From a virus (Duplodnaviria > Caudoviricetes), in IMG/VR virus record IMGVR_UViG_638276483_000001, positions 1-64,000 of that record: DNA of 64,000 nt; one strand, written 5' to 3'. Numbering within the stretch: position 1 is the stretch's first letter; each line of letters begins with the position of its first letter. The position numbers and the translations under genes are program-made. Positions 11,387-39,491 of the stretch are shown here, piece after piece. Below the pieces are notes generated by a model that was not told the origin of the DNA, made no database searches, and saw only the letters and a program-made list of their open reading frames with translations.

Positions 11387-12706
11387 ATGGAGAGCGGTAT
11401 CGACCTCTCCGTCCTGATCTGCTCTACCCACACTCGGTGGGACAACTTCGGGCAAGCGATCCAGCGGCAGATCTGGCCGCAGTTTGAGGCGCTCGCCCCC
11501 GAAGATCAGGCTCGAGTGGAGATCATCCTCCTCACCGACAACAAACAGCTCATGCTGGGGGATAAGCGCAATGTCATGGTCGACATTGCGCAGGGGCGCT
11601 ACGTCGTTTTCATTGACGACGACGACCGCATCGAACCTGACTACCTATCAACACTTTTAAACGCGATCGACACCAGTCCGGGTGTCGACGTTGTCACCTT
11701 TCACGCCTCGGTCAGCCTGAATGGCGGGCCCCCGAAGATCTGTCGCTACTCCACGGGGTGGGTCGAGGATCACAACACCGAGGATGAGTACCACCGGCTG
11801 CCGAATCACATCTGCTGCATTCGGCGCGACCTCGCCCGCTCGGTGTCCTACCCGTCGGTGCGGCACCACGAAGACAGTGGCTACTCGAAAATCCTTGCGC
11901 CGCTATTAAAGACGGAACGTGCTTTGAATCGGGTGCTGTACCACTACGACTACAGCGCCGCGACCACCGAGGCTCAAACCCGCGAAGCCACCGTCATCCG
12001 CCGGCGCGAACTCCCACCGTTGGTGGACATCGTTTTTTTGTCGAACGCCAAAACCGACGAACTACGGGAGATGACACAGCACGCGGTAGATACCTGCCTG
12101 GCAGGTGCCAACGCGCTCCCGGTCAACATCATTGTCGTCGAGCAGCAGCCCGGCATCGGGTACGACAACGCCCAGACCATGTATCAAACGGGACCCTTCC
12201 GATACAACGCCTTCGCCAACCTCGGCGTCGCCACGGGCTCCGCAGAGTGGGTGGCGATCGCCAACAACGACCTCGTCTTCTCTAACGGCTGGCTGCACGC
12301 CCTTCTGGCGGCGGATTATCCGTTCGTCTCACCCAAATCTCCCAACGACGCTCGGCAGCAAGACATTACCCGGAACACCGTCGGAGATGTCACCGGTCGG
12401 CACCTCTCGGGCTGGTTCTTCATGATGCGCCGGGAACTGTGGGAGCGTATCGGCGGCTTCGACGAGGTCGTGGACTTCTGGTGCTCCGACGACGTGGTGA
12501 TCGAGCAGTGTCGCGCGGTGGACACGCTGCCCATGCTGGTGCCGAAGTCCGAGGTCGCCCATCTGGGGTCAAAGACGTTCACGACCGAAGATCCCGCGAA
12601 GTTCGACGACATGACCTGGCTGCAGATCAAGAAGTTCAGCGACAAGTACGGCCCGCATCGGTTCACCGTTGAACCGCAATACCGGGAATGGCTAGCGCGC
12701 CAATGA
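11387..12706 (+). CDS. glycosyltransferase (two GT2-like domains)
   Basis: LSVLIC...YVVFIDDDD and IANNDL...IGGFDE. Confidence 0.9.
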   Translation: MESGIDLSVLICSTHTRWDNFGQAIQRQIWPQFEALAPEDQARVEIILLTDNKQLMLGDKRNVMVDIAQGRYVVFIDDDDRIEPDYLSTLLNAIDTSPGVDVVTFHASVSLNGGPPKICRYSTGWVEDHNTEDEYHRLPNHICCIRRDLARSVSYPSVRHHEDSGYSKILAPLLKTERALNRVLYHYDYSAATTEAQTREATVIRRRELPPLVDIVFLSNAKTDELREMTQHAVDTCLAGANALPVNIIVVEQQPGIGYDNAQTMYQTGPFRYNAFANLGVATGSAEWVAIANNDLVFSNGWLHALLAADYPFVSPKSPNDARQQDITRNTVGDVTGRHLSGWFFMMRRELWERIGGFDEVVDFWCSDDVVIEQCRAVDTLPMLVPKSEVAHLGSKTFTTEDPAKFDDMTWLQIKKFSDKYGPHRFTVEPQYREWLARQ

Positions 12707-13855: not shown

Positions 13856-14161
13856 ATGGAAGACGATACGGAAGCAATCGTCGAGGTGGCGATGGAAACC
13901 GCCGACGAGAAGGGCGTGCCGATCGTCTTGCTCGGCGGGGCGCCCAACCACCCGATTGCGGACCTACTCCGCATGAGCGGGGCCCAGTTCCTGCACGCCC
14001 AAGACATGAGCTGCACGCCGCGGGCGGTCTACATCATCGCCGAGCCGCGCTACGGCGAGTATCGCTTCGCCACGGGATCGGTCGTGCTCGACCAATTCGC
14101 CAGTATCGCCGATCAGCCCGGGGTAACGGTGCACCGCAAAGAAGTCTTGGTGGACGACTAA
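13856..14161 (+). CDS. hypothetical protein
   Basis: AGGGG RBS, in operon. Confidence 0.65.
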   Translation: MEDDTEAIVEVAMETADEKGVPIVLLGGAPNHPIADLLRMSGAQFLHAQDMSCTPRAVYIIAEPRYGEYRFATGSVVLDQFASIADQPGVTVHRKEVLVDD

Positions 14162-14207
14162 AAAACCACCGAGCCGGCGGGGGATTGGGGCGCATCGGCT
14201 CGGTGGT
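14160..14207 (-). terminator. intrinsic terminator closing the TIGR cassette (possibly bidirectional)
   Basis: accaccgagccg...cggctcggtggt stem preceded on + by an A-run (U-tract on -). Confidence 0.7.
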
Positions 14208-14215
14208 CCGTTTTA

Positions 14216-14267
14216 TCGCAACGGGCGCATCGACCATGGGTGCCGGACATGCACTGGCCCGCTGCGA
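14216..14267 (-). ncRNA. TIGR stem-loop unit U1
   Basis: Minus strand TCGCAGCGGGCCA-GTGCATGTC-CGGCACCCA-TGGTCGATG-CGCCCGTTGCGA. Confidence 0.8.
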
Positions 14268-14378
14268 AGTCTTGAGTTTTAGTGGTCGCCGGACTGAGTG
14301 TGGAAGCGTCCGGCGACCGTAACCTTCGGGCCCAGGCTTGAAATCGGTTTAATCGGGTTAACCCTCCGGCTACGTTTC

Positions 14379-14407
14379 AGTGTAGTGCAGTGTGGCCGCT
14401 TGTGCAA
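14379..14407 (-). promoter_or_regulatory. SigA-like promoter P2 for TIGR unit U1
   Basis: TTGCAC-17 nt-TACACT on minus strand. Confidence 0.65.
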
Positions 14408-14439
14408 CCCACTGCGATAGATTTTTTAGGAGACCTTGC

Positions 14440-14601
14440 ATGAGTAACGTTCGCCAGCGGATGGAGGAGTACCTTGACCAGGGTGGATTCGGCGGAGTTA
14501 AGCCTGAGCACCGGGAGGGCATGTTGGACATCTTGGAGATGTTCGGCAACATCGTCCGCGAGGACTGGGACTCCTGGTCCGAGTATCTCAAGGGGGTTTA
14601 G
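14440..14601 (+). CDS. small hypothetical protein (53 aa) inside TIGR cassette
   Basis: AGGAG RBS; MSNVRQRMEEYLDQGGFGG... Confidence 0.65.
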   Translation: MSNVRQRMEEYLDQGGFGGVKPEHREGMLDILEMFGNIVREDWDSWSEYLKGV

Positions 14602-14774
14602 GTTCACCGGCCGCGGAGCCTTCTTGGGTGTCGCGGGGGATATGGCGACCGGTGAACCGTTCACGACTAGGCGTGTAGCTTTTGGGCGTCGACCGTGCGG
14701 CAGGCCCAGTCGCGAGGTTTAATGCCGCCGGGCGCGTCTGCCTTGGGTGTCGAGCCTCCTCTGGCCCGGCGGCA
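14601..14774 (-). ncRNA. TIGR stem-loop array, units U2-U4
   Basis: Hairpins 14601-14658, 14661-14715, 14723-14774, each with loop repeat CGAC(A/G)CCCA between two ~9-nt spacers. Confidence 0.88.
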
Positions 14775-14780
14775 AGTCTT

Positions 14781-15554
14781 TCATGCGGCCTGCGGAAGCT
14801 CCACGGCCTCGTGGAGCCGCTTCGACTCGCGCCACAAATCTCTCAGGATCTCTTTGCCCATCTTCCGCAGCGCCCGAGCGTGCTTGTGGCCATCGGACAG
14901 GGGGGACCCCGCCAGAGCGGGCTTACCCTTCGGGCCGCACCGTACGCAATCCTTGCCGTGTACCGCGTTGGCGTATTGCTCCTTCGCTGCATAGTAGACG
15001 TCGGCGTAATGCCCTTGGGCCTTGAGGCAGGCCCCGGTAATGTTCCACAGGCGCATCCGCGCCACGTCGTTCCAGTTGCCCTGGACACCTTTCATGTGCC
15101 GCGGCGCGGCGCCGTTGACCACGTGATAACCGCAGTAGGCCCACAGCTCGGAGACGGTGCGCGGCCGATCGTACGGCACCATGACCGGATCGCCGTTTTT
15201 GTCTTTCTCGCCCGTCTCATAGAACCCGCTATGCCAGTACGGGTCGCCCGTCTTGGCGAGTAGCCGGCCAGCTTGCTTGTAGCCGATGCCTTTTTGCGCG
15301 GTGATCCAATCCCCGAGGGGGTGGGCTTTCACGGAGCGCTCAAGATTCTTGATCATCGACTTTTCGCGCTCTTGGAGTTGCTCGACGTGGGCGCGCACCT
15401 GGATAACAGTCGGGTCGTCTTCGCGCAGTCCGTAGCCGTTGTTTTCTGTGTCGGTCAGTGACCGGAGGCGGTTTTCTGCGGCGATGCGGATGTCCTCGAT
15501 GTCGTCGAGGAGTTCGGCAAGAATGCCGATGTTCGTGGTGCTGAAGGGTTTCAT
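14781..15554 (-). CDS. Nop-domain TIGR-associated protein (TasA-like, no RuvC/HNH)
   Basis: Coiled coil RIAAENRL; KGIG...AGRLLA; SELWAYCG; GNWN..AR..LW; HARALRKMGKEILRDLW, the IS110/Nop C-terminal signature; no DEDD domain; flanked by dual-spacer arrays. Confidence 0.85.
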   Translation of the reverse strand: MKPFSTTNIGILAELLDDIEDIRIAAENRLRSLTDTENNGYGLREDDPTVIQVRAHVEQLQEREKSMIKNLERSVKAHPLGDWITAQKGIGYKQAGRLLAKTGDPYWHSGFYETGEKDKNGDPVMVPYDRPRTVSELWAYCGYHVVNGAAPRHMKGVQGNWNDVARMRLWNITGACLKAQGHYADVYYAAKEQYANAVHGKDCVRCGPKGKPALAGSPLSDGHKHARALRKMGKEILRDLWRESKRLHEAVELPQAA

Positions 15555-15575
15555 GGGTTTCTCTTTTCTCTGGGG

Positions 15576-15802
15576 TTCACCCCCCGGCGTTACCCAATAG
15601 GGTTCCGATAGAGAAATGGCCGAGCGGTGAAGTTTGGTTGACGGGGCGGGTGAACATTGGGTGTCGAAGATCAGTTGACCCCGTCAGGTTTGGTTGCCGC
15701 CCGCGGTACAGCTTTGGGTGTCGAGTCTGGCCTGGCCCGGCGGCAAGTTTGATGCGGCGGGCGAGGATGCCCTGGGTGTCGGACGCGCAATAGCCCGCCG
15801 CA
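15576..15802 (-). ncRNA. TIGR stem-loop array, units U5-U8
   Basis: Hairpins 15576-15631, 15639-15686, 15694-15746, 15753-15802 with the same 9+9 nt architecture. Confidence 0.9.
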
Positions 15803-15808
15803 AATCTG

Positions 15809-16309
15809 TTATTCGACCGGGCCGCTCAGTTCGCCGACGGTCTCCACATTCTCAAGCTCCATCTTGGCCAGTACGCGGGCCCAGTAATCAGCATCGGCGT
15901 TCGCAGCTTCAGCGGCCATGCGCCGGGACTCGATCAGGAACTTCACGTCATCGTGATTCAACTCTTTGATGATGACATAGCCACGGTCGGTCCCTATCTG
16001 CTTCTCCAGGAACTTCGCCCACGGGTTTTCTTCCGCATAAGCCTTGGTGCGATTTGATTTGTTTGCCTTCCCGCTGCGCACGGCCCCGCCGCCAGCTCGA
16101 CGCACATCGTTGAGCGCGGCATTTCGCTCATTGCCGATGAAGATGCGGATCTGCGGGGGGAGTGACTTGATGAAGAAGTCGCGAATCAAATGGTCGGGGG
16201 TGGCGTCGGCCACCTTCTCGGCCAATTCCCAGACGTCGGTGACGTCGGGGTTGTCGGCGATCACCTCTCGGATGGCGTCGTTGAGCGTGATTTCAGTTGC
16301 TGCGGTCAT
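15809..16309 (-). CDS. TIGR-cassette accessory protein of unknown function (166 aa)
   Basis: MTAATEITL...; shares a 17-nt leader with the tas gene; lies between arrays. Confidence 0.8.
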   Translation of the reverse strand: MTAATEITLNDAIREVIADNPDVTDVWELAEKVADATPDHLIRDFFIKSLPPQIRIFIGNERNAALNDVRRAGGGAVRSGKANKSNRTKAYAEENPWAKFLEKQIGTDRGYVIIKELNHDDVKFLIESRRMAAEAANADADYWARVLAKMELENVETVGELSGPVE

Positions 16310-16334
16310 GCGTTTCTCTTTTCTCTGGCTGGTT

Positions 16335-16568
16335 TTCACCGGCGGCGCTTGTAGCTTGGGTGTCGGGAACTCTCTGGCCGCCGGTGAAGCTTGGTCGCAG
16401 CGGGCGAGGAAGTTTTGGGTGTCGCCGCAACCTTGGCCCGCTGCGAAGCTTGGTGCCGGGGCGGCCCGAAGATGGGTGTCGCGTCGGATTTGGCCCCGGC
16501 AAATCTGTGGAGTTGTAACGCGGCGGGCGGGACTTCCTTGGGGGTCGAGAACCCGTTGGCCCGCCGCG
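16335..16568 (-). ncRNA. TIGR stem-loop array, units U9-U12
   Basis: Hairpins 16335-16388, 16395-16446, 16454-16501, 16519-16568. Confidence 0.9.
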
Positions 16569-16576
16569 ATGCCCCA

Positions 16577-16605
16577 ACCCTACCGCAGTGCGCTGGGCGG
16601 CGCAA
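16577..16605 (-). promoter_or_regulatory. SigA-like promoter P1 for the TIGR-Tas cassette
   Basis: TTGCGC-17 nt-TAGGGT; predicted start site ~16570 abuts the first unit. Confidence 0.65.
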
Positions 16606-16695
16606 TACACTGCGATGAACTTTTTCTTAAACTACCCGGGACCGAGGTTGACCTGGACTTTTCGACCTCAGCACACAAGCAAGGGGAACTGCTTC

Positions 16696-17424
16696 GTGCG
16701 AATCATCGGCATGTTGAGCTGGTATCAAGAGCCCGTTTCATGGCTCGCCGAGTGCGTGTCGGCGCTCTCCAAGATTTCCGACCACGTCGTCGCGGTTGAT
16801 GGGCCCTACTGGGGCTTCCCCGGCGCCGTGTTGAAGCCCGCCAGCGGCCCCGAACAGGCCGACGTCATCGCCCGCACCGCGGCCGGACTGGGTATGGGCT
16901 GCACCATCCATGCCCCACGCAAGCCCTGGTCGGGCCCAAACGGCGGCGAGGTCGCCAAGCGCGACTGGATGATGCAGGCCGCGATGCTGGTCGCAGAGCC
17001 GGGCGATTGGCTGCTGCGCGTGGACGCCGACGAGGTGTTCACCGCCGTCCCGGGTGACGTAAAGCAGCGCCTAGCCGAAACCGACAAGCACGTCGCCGAA
17101 GTAATGCTCTGGGAGCGCGAGGCCGAGGATTCCGTCAATCGAGTGGTCGATGTCGGCGACGACTACGAATCACCGCTGCGCTGCCTGTTCCGCGCAATCC
17201 CCGGCATCCGCATCGAGGGCGCGCACTTCGTTGTCTCCGCCCCCGTGGAGGGCGAGCGGAGATTCCTCGTCGGTCACAATACGGTGCCCGCAGAGTCCTT
17301 GTGGGATGTCCGCCTGGAGCACCGCACCCGACTTCGTTCACCCGGCCGCAAGCGCCTGAAGAACGAATACAGCCCACTGATCAATCAATTCGAGAAGGTC
17401 GAGGATACGCCTCGCAATGACTAG
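16696..17424 (+). CDS. glycosyltransferase (GT2-like)
   Basis: VVAVDG, DWLLRVDADE; AAGGGG RBS before GTG. Confidence 0.8.
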   Translation: MRIIGMLSWYQEPVSWLAECVSALSKISDHVVAVDGPYWGFPGAVLKPASGPEQADVIARTAAGLGMGCTIHAPRKPWSGPNGGEVAKRDWMMQAAMLVAEPGDWLLRVDADEVFTAVPGDVKQRLAETDKHVAEVMLWEREAEDSVNRVVDVGDDYESPLRCLFRAIPGIRIEGAHFVVSAPVEGERRFLVGHNTVPAESLWDVRLEHRTRLRSPGRKRLKNEYSPLINQFEKVEDTPRND

Positions 17425-28766: not shown

Positions 28767-30500
28767 TTGCCCAGAGTTGAAGTTGAACAGAAGACTCTCG
28801 ACGATTTACGGGCCAAGCTCTCCCAGGATGCGTATACGGCGGTTGAGGCCGCCCGGATGGTGTCGGAGATCGAGAAAGCTGCGGTCTCCGACACCCGCAT
28901 TATCGTCACCGTCTACGACAAGTTCTATCGCCCAGTGGGGGAGGCGGGCGACTACCTCTCCGTGGAGTGCAAATTCCCCCGCAACCAGGTCGAGAGCGGA
29001 AACCTTTCCCTCAAGCGCACCGATCCGTTGGCGGACGTTGTTCTGCAATGCCACGAGACCACGGTGCCCGTCACAATCGAAATCGGGCACCTATTGTGGT
29101 CGGGGCAGGTGAAGACGGCCCACGACAATTTCAACAACGCCGGCCAGGCGGATTTTGTCGAGTGCGAACTCGAAGGCGATTACGCCTGGCTGATGAAGAT
29201 CCTGGCGTGGCCGAACTTTCTGCTTCCATTGCAGGTCCAATTCCCGCCGCGCGGGGTGGCGATCGGCCCGGCCATTTCCATCCTCAAATGGCTATTGGGC
29301 ACCCAGGCATTCCGCCTGCAGGCGGGCATGTGGGAAATGGTCAACAACCTCCTGAGCCTGAATCTCGACTGGCGCGCCTGGTTCGGTACCGTTTTGTCGG
29401 CAGACCCGGGGAGCGACGGAATTGGCCTCGACGACGTGGCCCGCACTCTGCGCACGCCCATTTATGTCGTCCCCACCAATCCACTGACAGATACCTCGCC
29501 GTTCATTTCGGTGAACTGGCGCATGGACAAGATCGGCTCCATTTTCGAAGAGGTTGTTGAGGACAACGGCCTGCATGTCGAGGTGAAGTTGTGGCGGCCG
29601 GGTGATCCCCAGCCGGGCAACGACCCGCTGCTGGCGTTGTTCCCGCTCACGGTCCCCACGATTGTCGTGGACATCAAGGACCGCATGGGGATCGTGGGGC
29701 CCACGGGCACCTTCCTGGACGGCATCTTGCGCGTCCTGGTGGATTTGCAGAGCTCCATTTTCGGCGACGTCCTGGCGCCATTCTTGAACCCGAAGGGTGA
29801 GTACGCCCCGGACGGGTGGAATATCGCACCACTACTCGGTGTGCATTATGTCCCAACGTGGGCAGTATTCAATGCGGATCATCCTAAAGGCGGGGTTTCC
29901 GGCCGACTATCCCATCATAGACCAGAGGCGTGGCGGGTAATTGTCGGCGGTAAATCTCCGAAATGGTTAAATGATCTAATTAATGCGACCATGGCCTTTA
30001 TTCTGGATATGGTCCTCATCGTCGTCGGCATTACCGGCATTCCGAGCAATATGTTCGAAGGCCTGTTCAACGACGTGTTGCTGGCATTCCAGTTGGCGGA
30101 TAACTTCGATCGTCGCGTCAAAATGGGTCCGTACGGCCACGCCGAGGTCTTTGTGCCCACCAACAAGGCGCCGTACACCATCGATGGCATTTTCGCGCTC
30201 AAGCGTGAAATGTGGAACACCCGCGGATACATCTCGGGCGAGGTCACCTTCAAAAACGGCCTGCCCTACGAGATCGGCCGCGACCTGTTCCCGGGCGCCC
30301 TGGCGACCATTATCCGCAACGGTCAACTCTACACCGACTGGGTCGAGAATATCGTTGTCGTGGACACCCGCGACGGCCGTTCCGAGGTTATTGTTCAAAT
30401 CGGCGACGGCAAGGCCGAAGAGGCCCCGGTCGTCAAACTCCAGCGCAAGCTGTCGAAGTTCCAAGAGGCCATCAACATCTTGACATTGGCCACCCAGTAG
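28767..30500 (+). CDS. minor tail protein
   Basis: Position; VGGKSPKWLN motif. Confidence 0.85.
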   Translation: MPRVEVEQKTLDDLRAKLSQDAYTAVEAARMVSEIEKAAVSDTRIIVTVYDKFYRPVGEAGDYLSVECKFPRNQVESGNLSLKRTDPLADVVLQCHETTVPVTIEIGHLLWSGQVKTAHDNFNNAGQADFVECELEGDYAWLMKILAWPNFLLPLQVQFPPRGVAIGPAISILKWLLGTQAFRLQAGMWEMVNNLLSLNLDWRAWFGTVLSADPGSDGIGLDDVARTLRTPIYVVPTNPLTDTSPFISVNWRMDKIGSIFEEVVEDNGLHVEVKLWRPGDPQPGNDPLLALFPLTVPTIVVDIKDRMGIVGPTGTFLDGILRVLVDLQSSIFGDVLAPFLNPKGEYAPDGWNIAPLLGVHYVPTWAVFNADHPKGGVSGRLSHHRPEAWRVIVGGKSPKWLNDLINATMAFILDMVLIVVGITGIPSNMFEGLFNDVLLAFQLADNFDRRVKMGPYGHAEVFVPTNKAPYTIDGIFALKREMWNTRGYISGEVTFKNGLPYEIGRDLFPGALATIIRNGQLYTDWVENIVVVDTRDGRSEVIVQIGDGKAEEAPVVKLQRKLSKFQEAINILTLATQ

Positions 30501-38319: not shown

Positions 38320-39296
38320 AAGTTTGGAACGGCACAGCGTTCGTTGACCCCACCGCGTTCAAGGTGTGGAACGGGTCGGCGTTCGTCAACCCTGAGCTGT
38401 ACACGTGGAACGGGACCAGCTTTGACAAGGTGTGGCCGTCGTTTGAACCGTTCAGCATTTCCAGCGAAGACCCCGGCTACGAGGATCTGATCGACGAACC
38501 GGTACCCGAGGGCGCTTCGGGCTGTTGGGTGACCCTCGTTGGTGGCGGAGGCGGGGGCGGTGCGGGCTACCAGAGTTTCGATGATACCTACCGCCGCGGC
38601 GGCGGCGGCGGAGCGGGTGGGGCAAAGATTCCCCGCGTGTGGGTGCCTCGCGAGGCTATGGGTTCCTCCTACAGCGTCGTCTTAGGACTCGGCGGGGCGT
38701 ATACCGGTGGAGGCTCGACAGGATTTGGCGGCACCGACGGGGGATCGTCCTCGTTCTTGTCCGGATCTGTGTCGCTGATCGCAGGAGGAGGGGCGCGCGG
38801 CGCGATCGCGCTGTCCGGTAGCAGTACGCAGGTGTCCGGGGGCGCTGGAAGCCTGACGAGCGTCACCTCCGGGGTTGCCGGGGCCGTCGTTATCCCCGGC
38901 GCGCCCGGGGGTAAGGGGGCCGCGTCGTCAGGCTCTGCGGAAGATGGCGGAGATAACCCGAGCGGTGCAGGTGCGGGCGGCGGAGGAGGCGGCCGGGTTT
39001 CGGACTCCAATAGCCAGACTCCCGGGGGCAGAGGAGGTAACTCCGCGGTCGGTACCGGAGGGGAGCGGGGCGGTGCCGGGGCCAACGGGTCCAGCGCCGC
39101 CGACCAAACCGGCGGTAACCCAGGCGCTGGAGGAGGCGGTGGCGGTGGCAACAACAGCGGGTCCACAACCACCGGTCACGGCGGTAACGGAGGTAAATAC
39201 GGCGGAGGCGGTGGCGGAAGTGGCGGTCATAGGACTAATGCTCGTCGCTACGGCGGAGCGGGCGGTGACGGATACGTCCTGGTCGAGTGGGAATGA
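38316..39296 (+). CDS. glycine-rich minor tail protein
   Basis: KVWNG repeats and long Gly-rich tract. Confidence 0.8.
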   Translation: MKVWNGTAFVDPTAFKVWNGSAFVNPELYTWNGTSFDKVWPSFEPFSISSEDPGYEDLIDEPVPEGASGCWVTLVGGGGGGGAGYQSFDDTYRRGGGGGAGGAKIPRVWVPREAMGSSYSVVLGLGGAYTGGGSTGFGGTDGGSSSFLSGSVSLIAGGGARGAIALSGSSTQVSGGAGSLTSVTSGVAGAVVIPGAPGGKGAASSGSAEDGGDNPSGAGAGGGGGGRVSDSNSQTPGGRGGNSAVGTGGERGGAGANGSSAADQTGGNPGAGGGGGGGNNSGSTTTGHGGNGGKYGGGGGGSGGHRTNARRYGGAGGDGYVLVEWE

Positions 39297-39299
39297 CCC

Positions 39300-39491
39300 C
39301 TACTCGCCGCGAATGATTTGATACACCCGCCCTCTGGTGATGCCTGCTTGTCTGGCGATCTCAGGTGCGGGCATGCCGTCCGCGTACGCGGCCTTCACGA
39401 GGTCGAACATTTCACTGGTCAGCTCGCCCATCTCGGCTGCAACCTTCTGCCGCTTGTCGCGGTTGGCGGCTAGTCGATCAGCGAGGGGCAT
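39300..39491 (-). CDS. HTH DNA-binding protein
   Basis: PEIARQAGITRGRVYQI. Confidence 0.85.
   Translation of the reverse strand: MPLADRLAANRDKRQKVAAEMGELTSEMFDLVKAAYADGMPAPEIARQAGITRGRVYQIIRGE

What the first reader, a model, noticed from the sequence alone, without database searches (positions are those of the whole stretch)
14216..16568. Reconstructed 18-nt targets of the 12 guides
Joining spacer A to the reverse complement of spacer B (opposite-strand tandem targeting as described for Tas) gives: U1 GTGCATGTCCATCGACCA; U2 TATCCCCCGGAGCCTTCT; U3 CCGCACGGTTGTAGCTTT; U4 GAGGAGGCTCGTCTGCCT; U5 TTTCTCTATTTACCCAAT; U6 ACTGATCTTGGTGAACAT; U7 GGCCAGACTGTACAGCTT; U8 TTGCGCGTCAGGATGCCC; U9 GAGAGTTCCCTTGTAGCT; U10 AGGTTGCGGAGGAAGTTT; U11 AATCCGACGGCCCGAAGA; U12 ACGGGTTCTGGACTTCCT. 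Several read like actinobacterial coding DNA across the junction (e.g. ATG TTC ACC AAG ATC; AAC TTC CTC CGC AAC; CGG GTT CTG GAC TTC). That is suggestive only. I found no full match in this window by eye, so targets may be foreign.
Basis: inference. Interest (0 to 1): 0.85.

Follow-up and report, generated by a model that had tools for sequence, protein, structure and literature searches.

The report
Phage TIGR-TasA guide array, targets unresolved

Summary
Window 14217-16568 has 12 stem-loop units on the minus strand: helix, CA, 9-nt spacer A, 9-nt loop, 9-nt spacer B, CG, helix. All 12 reader 18-mers equal A plus the reverse complement of B.

The units surround a 257-aa gene that passes NCBIfam TIGR_Tas_endo (216.7 bits, cut-off 100) and folds like solved TasR and TasH without a nuclease domain. 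This is a stem-loop TIGR-TasA system, a known kind.

Targets are unresolved:
- The phage's own genome has no site closer than 4 mismatches.
- Up to 2.25 Mb of related DNA and 21 whole mycobacteriophage genomes (1.40 Mb) were searched. Native pairings beat shuffled ones nowhere except guide U6.
- U6 pairs 17 of 18, with the odd position an rU.dG wobble, in the minor tail gene of cluster B1 phages. p is about 0.01 by a scoring rule chosen afterwards and about 0.2 by plain counting.

Unit U1 lies outside the tasA cassette. It persists in 4 of 4 Tas-less relatives with identical flanks, in three spacer versions among the five phages.

The parts
14217..14266 (-). Unit U1. It lies outside the tasA cassette, has a variant loop with one changed base, and a G-U in the helix. 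It is the last unit of the minus-strand transcript, just upstream of a terminator-like hairpin.
14605..14654 (-). Unit U2, with 0 mismatches to the fixed positions and a 13-bp stem.
14663..14712 (-). Unit U3, degenerate: 3 mismatches to the fixed positions, with TG in place of CA.
14724..14773 (-). Unit U4.
14781..15554 (-). tasA, 257 aa. It has a coiled coil plus a Nop-type RNA-binding domain and no nuclease domain.
15579..15628 (-). Unit U5, degenerate: the loop differs and the spacers are A+T-rich.
15638..15687 (-). Unit U6, the guide with the cluster B1 lead.
15695..15744 (-). Unit U7.
15753..15802 (-). Unit U8, with TA in place of CA.
15809..16309 (-). Accessory gene, 166 aa, phrog_4604, fold unknown. 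The same family sits upstream of tasA, with units in between, in part of the Tas family.
16337..16386 (-). Unit U9.
16396..16445 (-). Unit U10. Its helix is the same as that of U1.
16453..16502 (-). Unit U11.
16519..16568 (-). Unit U12, with one changed loop base. It is the first unit of the minus-strand transcript.
14387..14427 (+). Left copy of a 41-nt element (hairpin plus T-run) that brackets the cassette.
16585..16625 (+). Right copy of the bracketing 41-nt element. By my count from the alignment, 28 of 41 bases match the left copy. The Tas-less relative Courthouse has one hybrid copy.
14166..14205 (.). Two-way terminator-like hairpin. On the minus strand it follows U1 and is followed by a T-run.
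14440..14601 (+). Open frame of 53 aa between U1 and U2 on the other strand. It is unverified, with no relative in 149 tasA loci.

Best explanation
This is a stem-loop TIGR-TasA system carried by a Cluster-J-type (Omegavirus-like) mycobacteriophage.

A minus-strand transcript runs U12-U9, the accessory gene, U8-U5, tasA, U4-U2 and U1, and ends at a terminator-like hairpin. It would be cut into about 50-nt hairpin tigRNAs. Each hairpin presents two 9-nt spacers between CA...CG box-like motifs, separated by a 9-nt loop.

By analogy with solved relatives, a TasA dimer holds one tigRNA. Spacer A pairs with one DNA strand and spacer B with the other strand of the adjoining 9 bp. TasA has no nuclease, so the expected outcome is binding and a block to transcription, not cutting.

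The sites are not in the phage itself, so the guides point at foreign DNA. Which DNA is not settled. The only candidate is the minor tail protein gene of cluster B1 phages, for U6.

Shown here: the anatomy, the family membership of the protein, the helix covariation, the spacer boundaries and the absence of self targets.
Inferred: transcription, processing, dimer binding, the order of the join, repression and the target class.
For: Protein:
- NCBIfam NF052498 TIGR_Tas_endo, 216.7 bits against a cut-off of 100.
- phmmer against PDB chains: TaTasR 9mty at E 1.7e-13 and TasH at E 3.3e-7.
- The AF2 model has pLDDT 90.7 and pTM 0.83. The ten best Foldseek rows are all TasR or TasH chains, with TM 0.59-0.67.
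- The alignment to TasR begins at its residue 151, and the model's first 100 residues are a helical hairpin, so there is no RuvC or HNH part.

Array:
- 12 units with helix covariation.
- The two 9-nt blocks are replaced wholesale between relatives while the flanks are identical.
- 40 of 45 phage loci with a relative of this TasA have such units on the tasA strand by a strict finder, 217 units in all.

Self-avoidance: the best site in the own genome has 4 mismatches for 11 of 12 guides, and the native mean of 4.17 matches the shuffled mean of 4.18.

Published behaviour of the kind:
- Stem-loop arrays, a 9-nt loop, a CUU at the stem base, 18-bp recognition and repression by TasA: bioRxiv 10.64898/2026.09.09.750476, Results read in full.
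- The tandem-spacer rule: PMC12045711, passages.

U6 lead:
- The site is at Orion (DQ398046) 30321-30338, in frame in the 751-aa minor tail gene. It has 0 hard mismatches and 1 wobble.
- The stretch is at least 99% identical in 292 of 349 records hit.
- The null rate is 49 hits in 44,732 shuffled pairings.
Against: - No RNA data: no sequencing run was listed, so transcription, strand and processing are unproven.
- A sigma-70 consensus scan found 0 promoter-like sites in 13900-16900.
- Pfam gave no hit for the protein at E up to 0.1.
- The order of the join is my inference; the opposite join is not excluded.
- Over all searched DNA, native pairings do no better than shuffled ones.
- The U6 hit is a single event. 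The wobble-aware rule was chosen after I saw it, and by plain counting 3 of 182 shuffled pairings also reach 1 mismatch. The site lies mid-gene, not at a promoter.
- Two units (U3, U5) are degenerate and may be dead.
- Spacers are 53.7% G+C against 61.4% for the genome, which is unexplained.
Confidence: 0.8

Rival explanations
1. The guides serve competition between phages. At least U6 directs TasA to the minor tail protein gene that nearly all cluster B1 mycobacteriophages share, lowering their yield in a cell that carries this phage.
For: - A 17 of 18 match with an rU.dG wobble at the odd position, in the literature-supported join with no gap.
- The site is at least 99% identical in 292 of 349 records, all Mycobacterium phages.
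- 0 of 182 shuffled pairings reach 0 hard mismatches with at most 1 wobble in 1.84 Mb.
- Wider null: 0.0011 hits per pairing over 44,732 pairings, and 3 in 5,064 for pairings with one half from this array. That gives about 0.007-0.013 expected hits for 12 guides.
- Arrays differ between near-identical cluster-A-type phages: 19 distinct guides in 12 loci, 13 of them seen once. That fits an arms race.
Against: - Only one guide of 12 is involved.
- The scoring rule was chosen post hoc, and plain counting gives p of about 0.2.
- The other Orion near-site (U1, 16 of 18, two hard mismatches) is at chance level and unchanged in 2 further B1 phages.
- Orion's mean best match over all 12 guides is 4.33 against 4.67 for shuffles with sd 0.76, which is not remarkable.
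- The site is mid-gene.
Confidence: 0.2
2. The guides point at the host chromosome or its resident elements, so the phage can silence host genes during infection or lysogeny.
For: - TasA proteins repress chromosomal genes when reprogrammed (preprint Results).
- No target was found in 25 whole phage genomes beyond one lead.
- In cluster-A-type phages the cassette lies among right-arm genes next to the repressor region.
Against: - Not tested: no Mycolicibacterium genome could be searched without typing the joined sequences.
- Arrays vary a great deal between phages grown on the same laboratory host. That argues against fixed host targets.
Confidence: 0.15
3. The targets follow the other join, revcomp(A) + B, or the RNA is made from the plus strand, which amounts to the same thing. 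In that case the reader's 18-mers are the wrong sequences.
For: - The papers I could read give no explicit order in their text.
- My reconstruction of the cut sites gives 10-nt rather than the stated 8-nt overhangs for the favoured join, so the published description and my reading do not fit exactly.
Against: - The other join can only give 5' overhangs, whereas 3' overhangs are reported.
- tasA, the accessory gene and the CUU motifs lie on the minus strand.
- The other join gave 0 hits among 212 native guides, where 0.24 were expected, and nothing at 1 mismatch or fewer without a gap, apart from one self-match of the Ariel unit.
Confidence: 0.1
4. The repeats are terminator or REP-like hairpins with no guide role, and the variable blocks are neutral.
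For: - The hairpins are G+C-rich and intergenic.
- U1 survives in phages without any Tas gene.
Against: - The fixed 9-9-9 register with box-like motifs.
- A Tas gene in the middle of the array.
- The same architecture beside Tas genes in 40 of 45 phage loci.
- Wholesale change confined to the two 9-nt blocks while 38 and 46 flanking bases are invariant.
- No terminator T-run after most units.
Confidence: 0.03

Closest known systems
Stem-loop TIGR-TasA systems: PlTasA from a Peromyscus gut contig, Bifidobacterium longum BlTasA and Minisyncoccota MbTasA (PMC12045711; bioRxiv 10.64898/2026.09.09.750476 and 10.64898/2026.08.11.744272)
   Same: - A Tas protein with a Nop domain and no nuclease.
- Hairpin units with two spacers of about 9 nt, box C/D-like dinucleotides and a 9-nt loop.
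- Stems that vary between units.
- Sub-arrays on both sides of tas.
- A CUU at the stem base in part of the units.
   Different: - The host is a cultured mycobacteriophage lineage with many sequenced relatives.
- The cassette sits antisense within the structural gene arm.
- An accessory 166-aa gene lies inside the array.
- One unit lies outside the cassette and survives in Tas-less relatives.
- No expression or binding data exist for this system.
TaTasR (PDB 9mty) and SpTasH (9w04 and others), dual-repeat TIGR nucleases
   Same: The coiled coil plus Nop C-terminal domain (TM 0.59-0.67). The tandem-spacer logic of 9 + 9 nt on opposite strands.
   Different: Those proteins carry RuvC or HNH domains and cut DNA. 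Their arrays are regular dual repeats processed to 36 nt. The protein here has no nuclease, and its units are hairpins with linkers.
TasA homologues of cluster-A-type mycobacteriophages (for example BPBiebs31 gp74, annotated as transposase or hypothetical)
   Same: About 51% identical TasA in 81 Mycobacterium phage records. The gene order is the same: accessory gene, units, tasA.
   Different: Those phages have 1-3 units by the strict finder, upstream only. The cassette lies in the right arm near the repressor. No spacer is shared with this array.
IS110/IS621 bridge RNA recombinases
   Same: A distant fold relation of the RNA-binding domain (8wt6 at rank 12, E 7.5e-3). An RNA with two specificity loops.
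   Different: No recombinase catalytic domains, no transposon ends, and many guides instead of one.
Archaeal and eukaryotic box C/D RNPs
   Same: A Nop-domain protein and two guide segments per RNA between C/D-type boxes.
   Different: The target is DNA, not RNA. There is no fibrillarin or L7Ae partner nearby, and no match to any Rfam family at E up to 1.

Membership tests
TIGR-Tas (Tas protein) | Protein of the Tas family with a Nop-type RNA-binding domain after a coiled coil | tested here: met
   NF052498 at 216.7 bits against a cut-off of 100. 9mty at E 1.7e-13 and TasH at E 3.3e-7. The model has pLDDT 90.7, and the top 10 Foldseek rows are all TasR or TasH.
TIGR-Tas, TasA subtype | No RuvC or HNH nuclease domain | tested here: met
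   The protein is 257 aa. Pfam gives no family at E up to 0.1. The match to TasR starts at its residue 151. Residues 7-102 of the model are helices only.
TIGR array, stem-loop type | Repeated units with two spacers of 8-12 nt flanked by box C/D-like motifs and separated by a loop of about 9 nt | tested here: met
   12 units with CA-N9-CG..CCA-N9-CG and a 9-nt loop. Ten of 12 have at most 1 mismatch to the 13 fixed positions.
TIGR array, stem-loop type | Palindromic flanks that differ between units but always pair | tested here: met
   87.5% of cells paired against 61.5% in shuffles (0 of 500 reach it). Eight of 10 pairs have changes on both sides.
TIGR array, stem-loop type | CUU at the base of the stem, the reported processing site | tested here: inconclusive
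   CUU lies directly 5' of the 10-bp helix in 5 of 12 units. GUU or AUU is there in 2 more, and U5 has it one base upstream.
TIGR-Tas | Array beside or around the tas gene on the same strand | tested here: met
   Units lie on both sides of tasA, and all 12 are in minus-strand sense.
TIGR-Tas | Array transcribed and processed into Tas-bound tigRNAs | not testable with these tools
   No sequencing run was listed for the stretch. A blank there is no evidence either way.
TIGR-Tas | Tas dimer on one tigRNA | not tested
TIGR-Tas | Guides bind an 18-bp DNA site through both strands | not testable with these tools
   Only a search for natural sites was possible. It gave one lead and is otherwise no better than shuffled pairings.
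CRISPR-Cas | Direct repeats of 25-36 nt with single spacers, plus cas genes | tested here: not met
   Tandem Repeats Finder gave 0 rows. The units are hairpins with two 9-nt spacers, and neither neighbouring protein matched a Cas family in the three family libraries searched (Pfam, NCBIfam, PHROGs).
IS110-type bridge RNA element | DEDD and serine recombinase domains with one bridge RNA | tested here: not met
   Only the RNA-binding part resembles 8wt6 (rank 12). The PHROG label 'transposase' reflects this shared domain.

The most novel reading that the evidence does not exclude
Cluster-J-type phages keep a single tigRNA gene (U1) at a fixed place even when they have no Tas gene.

Its two 9-nt spacers occur in three versions among five phages whose flanks are base-for-base identical. 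G000 and Ariel each have their own version, and the three others share one. This would be a guide-only passenger that borrows TasA from a co-resident or co-infecting TIGR-Tas phage.

The allelic series would then be a natural record of precise spacer replacement, a process for which no mechanism is known in TIGR systems.
Probability: 0.25. Interest if true: 0.8.

Novelty: new member of a known kind. Interest (0 to 1): 0.45.

Why it matters
The natural targets of TIGR guides and the way arrays gain spacers are both stated as open questions in the two main papers (PMC12045711 Discussion; preprint Discussion).

This system sits in a cultured, genetically tractable phage-host pair with hundreds of sequenced competitors. 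An exhaustive, controlled target search and simple plating or reporter tests are therefore feasible. The Tas-less relatives with a swapped-spacer solo unit offer a natural experiment on spacer turnover.

As it stands the array is an ordinary member of a described family, and NCBI's family model already names this protein family.

Tried and rejected
Self-regulation. Rejected: the own genome has no site under 4 mismatches in either join.

Targets in close relatives or at the empty insertion site. Rejected for 4 whole Cluster-J-type genomes: nothing at 1 mismatch or fewer without a gap.

Targets in the neighbourhoods of other TIGR-bearing phages (0.9 Mb). No enrichment. The U11 site with 2 mismatches in the DnaB-like gene of cluster-A-type phages has both differences at non-synonymous positions and is at chance level.

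A second native hit in the pooled test. It came from a doubtful unit far from its tasA with an atypical loop, so I dropped it as chance.

Accessory protein.
- No Pfam or NCBIfam family.
- ESM Atlas gave no usable hit.
- The AF2 model has pLDDT 86.3 and pTM 0.45. Foldseek gave 0 matches at E up to 0.001 among 20 rows.
- Its role is unknown, and I could not test whether it is the ParB-like partner described for some TasA loci.

Lysin B as an anchor to fetch diverse phage DNA. The relatives were too narrow (83 proteins), so I abandoned it.

An IMG/VR scan with the B1 tail protein found only 3 loci.

I tried once to display the single record in the 95-99% band at the U6 site and missed it. It remains unseen.

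Sequencing runs: none was listed and no RNA holder was listed.

Literature. Two searches found no paper that treats TIGR-Tas in mycobacteriophages beyond a citation. Supplements were closed, so Table S1 of PMC12045711 and the TIGRSafari catalogue may already list this locus.

What I read of each paper:
- PMC12045711: section 4 in full and passages.
- 10.64898/2026.09.09.750476: abstract, outline and the whole Results, plus passages.
- 10.64898/2026.08.11.744272: passages.
- 10.64898/2026.07.30.739390: passages.
- PMC13421893: the search listing only, and a term search with no hits.
Full report
WHAT IS THERE

The window is the first 64 kb of a 110,865-bp virus record (G000). Its flanks are about 95% identical to Cluster-J-type (Omegavirus) mycobacteriophages such as Courthouse, MiaZeal, LittleE and Ariel. 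Those phages lack most of 14.4-16.6 kb.

That stretch holds 12 hairpin units in four groups: U1; U2-U4; U5-U8; U9-U12. Between the groups lie two minus-strand genes of 257 aa and 166 aa.

Read on the minus strand, each unit is a helix of about 10 bp, then CA, 9 variable nt, the loop CGACACCCA, 9 variable nt, CG, and the other arm of the helix.

Tandem Repeats Finder sees nothing, because the units are separated by linkers and share only 13 fixed bases.

CHECK OF THE OBSERVATION

A script rebuilt A + revcomp(B) for all 12 units from coordinates.

Unit quality is as follows:
- 7 units have no mismatch to the fixed positions.
- 3 units have one mismatch.
- U3 and U5 have three mismatches.

The helix is supported by covariation. 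87.5% of 120 cells pair against 61.5% in shuffles (0 of 500 reach it), 8 of 10 pairs change on both sides, and slid partners reach at most 49.2%.

No Rfam family matches at E up to 1.

WHAT IT IS

The 257-aa protein passes NCBIfam TIGR_Tas_endo at 216.7 bits against a cut-off of 100. It matches solved TasR (9mty, E 1.7e-13) and TasH (E 3.3e-7) by sequence.

Its model has pLDDT 90.7, and the ten best structural neighbours are all TasR or TasH chains. Pfam is silent, and PHROGs calls the family 'transposase'.

The match to TasR starts after its RuvC domain, and the model has only a helical hairpin before the Nop-type domain. It is therefore a TasA. The NCBIfam word 'endonuclease' does not apply to this member.

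The architecture matches the stem-loop TIGR arrays described in PMC12045711 and in the 2026 preprint. Those descriptions include the 9-nt loop, units on both sides of tas, and a CUU at the stem base. Here the CUU lies directly 5' of the helix in 5 of 12 units.

DISTRIBUTION

Relatives at under 60% identity occur in 89 phage records: 81 Mycobacterium, 5 Gordonia, 1 Rhodococcus, 1 Arthrobacter and 1 Microcystis. They also occur in:
- 44 IMG/VR loci;
- 24 genomes of mostly Actinomycetota;
- at least 201 metagenome stretches;
- 1,504 proteins in the large protein collection, the closest 86% identical.

A strict finder sees 217 units beside tasA in 40 of 45 phage loci. Some of those units lie inside the tas reading frame.

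The 166-aa gene (phrog_4604) recurs just upstream of tasA, with units in between, in 22 of 149 loci. Among loci with enough upstream DNA to judge, it is present in 19 of 103. The family has 67 representative clusters and no recognisable fold.

THE JOIN

The papers state that spacer A pairs with one strand and spacer B with the adjoining part of the other. They also state that swapping A and B is tolerated, that gaps of 1-2 bp are tolerated, and that TasR leaves 3' overhangs.

Only A + revcomp(B) can yield 3' overhangs; the other join gives 5' overhangs. By my count the favoured join gives 10-nt rather than the stated 8-nt overhangs, so this step is inference. I tested both joins throughout.

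TARGET SEARCH

(1) Own genome. The minimum is 4 mismatches for 11 of 12 guides in the favoured join. Native means are 4.17 and 4.25 against 4.18 and 4.14 for shuffled pairings.

(2) 0.9 Mb of TIGR-bearing loci, all arrays against all DNA. Hits at 0, 1 and 2 mismatches were:

| Join | 207 native guides | 1,570 shuffled pairings |
|---|---|---|
| A + revcomp(B) | 0, 0, 22 | 1, 9, 125 |
| revcomp(A) + B | 0, 0, 16 | 0, 5, 123 |

(3) 2.25 Mb including four whole Cluster-J-type genomes. Nothing at 1 mismatch or fewer without a gap, except a self-match of the Ariel unit.

(4) A panel of 21 whole mycobacteriophage genomes, 1.40 Mb. The panel was L5, Bxb1, Bxz2, TM4, Che8, Che9c, Halo, Cjw1, Rosebush, Corndog, Barnyard, Giles, Bxz1, Orion, PBI1, LeBron, Wildcat, Gadjet, Marvin, Patience and BPBiebs31.
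- In the favoured join without a gap, 14 guides gave 0, 1, 3 and 20 hits at 0-3 mismatches. The 182 shuffled pairings gave 0, 3, 19 and 272.
- Per genome, native and shuffled means do not differ.

THE ONE LEAD

U6 matches Orion 30321-30338 at 17 of 18, in frame in the 751-aa minor tail protein gene. The odd position is an rU.dG wobble. The surrounding stretch is at least 99% identical in 292 of 349 records hit. One more record lies at 95-99%, and 56 cluster-B3-type records are at 89.5%.

Sites with no hard mismatch and at most one wobble are rare:
- 0 of 182 shuffled pairings reach that in 1.84 Mb.
- 49 of 44,732 pooled shuffled pairings reach it in the 1.40-Mb panel.
- 3 of 5,064 pairings with one half from this array reach it.

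That gives about 0.007-0.013 expected hits for 12 guides. However, I chose the wobble rule after seeing the hit. By plain counting, 3 of 182 shuffled pairings reach one mismatch, so p is about 0.2.

A second Orion near-site (U1, 16 of 18, over the start codon of gene 7) has two hard mismatches. It is unchanged in two further B1 phages and is at chance level. I treat the U6 site as a lead and no more.

U1 AND THE CASSETTE

U1 lies outside the inserted cassette. The cassette is bracketed by two copies of a 41-nt hairpin-plus-T-run element at 14387-14427 and 16585-16625. Courthouse has one hybrid copy, which fits insertion or deletion by recombination there.

Courthouse, LittleE, Squint and Ariel have no Tas gene: 0 of 4 match, while G000 does. 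Each still keeps one perfect unit at the U1 position.

The flanks are identical over 38 and 46 nt. The two 9-nt blocks come in three versions: G000 has one, Courthouse, LittleE and Squint share another, and Ariel has a third. In the Ariel version one block repeats part of the stem. The relatives annotate a 138-nt 'gene 20' across this unit.

In cluster-A-type arrays the same spacer A occurs with three different spacers B. The halves can therefore change separately.

VERDICT

The functional question, what the 18-mers hit, stays open because the decisive search could not be run here.

Noticed in passing
window 14217-14266; L158 3660-3709 (Courthouse), L159 about 12256-12305 (Ariel), L160 about 14044-14093 (LittleE), L161 about 12605-12654 (Squint): A solo tigRNA-like unit is kept at the same place in 4 of 4 relatives that have no Tas gene. 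The flanks and stem are identical, but the two 9-nt spacer blocks come in three versions.
   Followed up: partly
window 14387-14427 and 16585-16625: Two copies of a 41-nt hairpin-plus-T-run element bracket the tasA cassette, and the Tas-less relative has one hybrid copy. This suggests gain or loss of the cassette by recombination between them.
   Followed up: partly
L158 3638-3775 (Courthouse gene 20) and the same gene in Ariel and LittleE: The annotated 138-nt 'hypothetical protein' gene 20 of the relatives lies across the solo unit. It is probably not a protein gene.
   Followed up: no
window 15551-15573 and 16306-16328: tasA and the accessory gene have nearly the same 23-nt stretch over their start codons and leaders (96% identical, family D8), as if they share one translation start region.
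   Followed up: no
loci L024-L053, units at +375 to +530 from the tasA start: Many relatives carry one to three units inside the tasA reading frame, at an insertion seen in the protein alignment. The 2026 preprint reports the same for BlTasA. This window's tasA has none.
   Followed up: no
L012, L014, L015 (cluster-A-type phage arrays): The same spacer A is paired with three different spacers B in three phages, so the two halves of a guide can change independently.
   Followed up: no
L159 12295-12312 (Ariel): In Ariel's version of the solo unit, one spacer block repeats the adjoining stem sequence. It gives a perfect self-match in the alternative join and may be a slippage product or a dead unit.
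   Followed up: no
W23 (Marvin) 39023-39319: A weak Tas-like match (18.4 bits, E 4.7e-5, far under the cut-off) with one TGA inside, in a phage of another cluster.
   Followed up: no
the 24 spacers of window 14217-16568: Spacers are 53.7% G+C against 61.4% for the phage genome. The cause is unknown.
   Followed up: no
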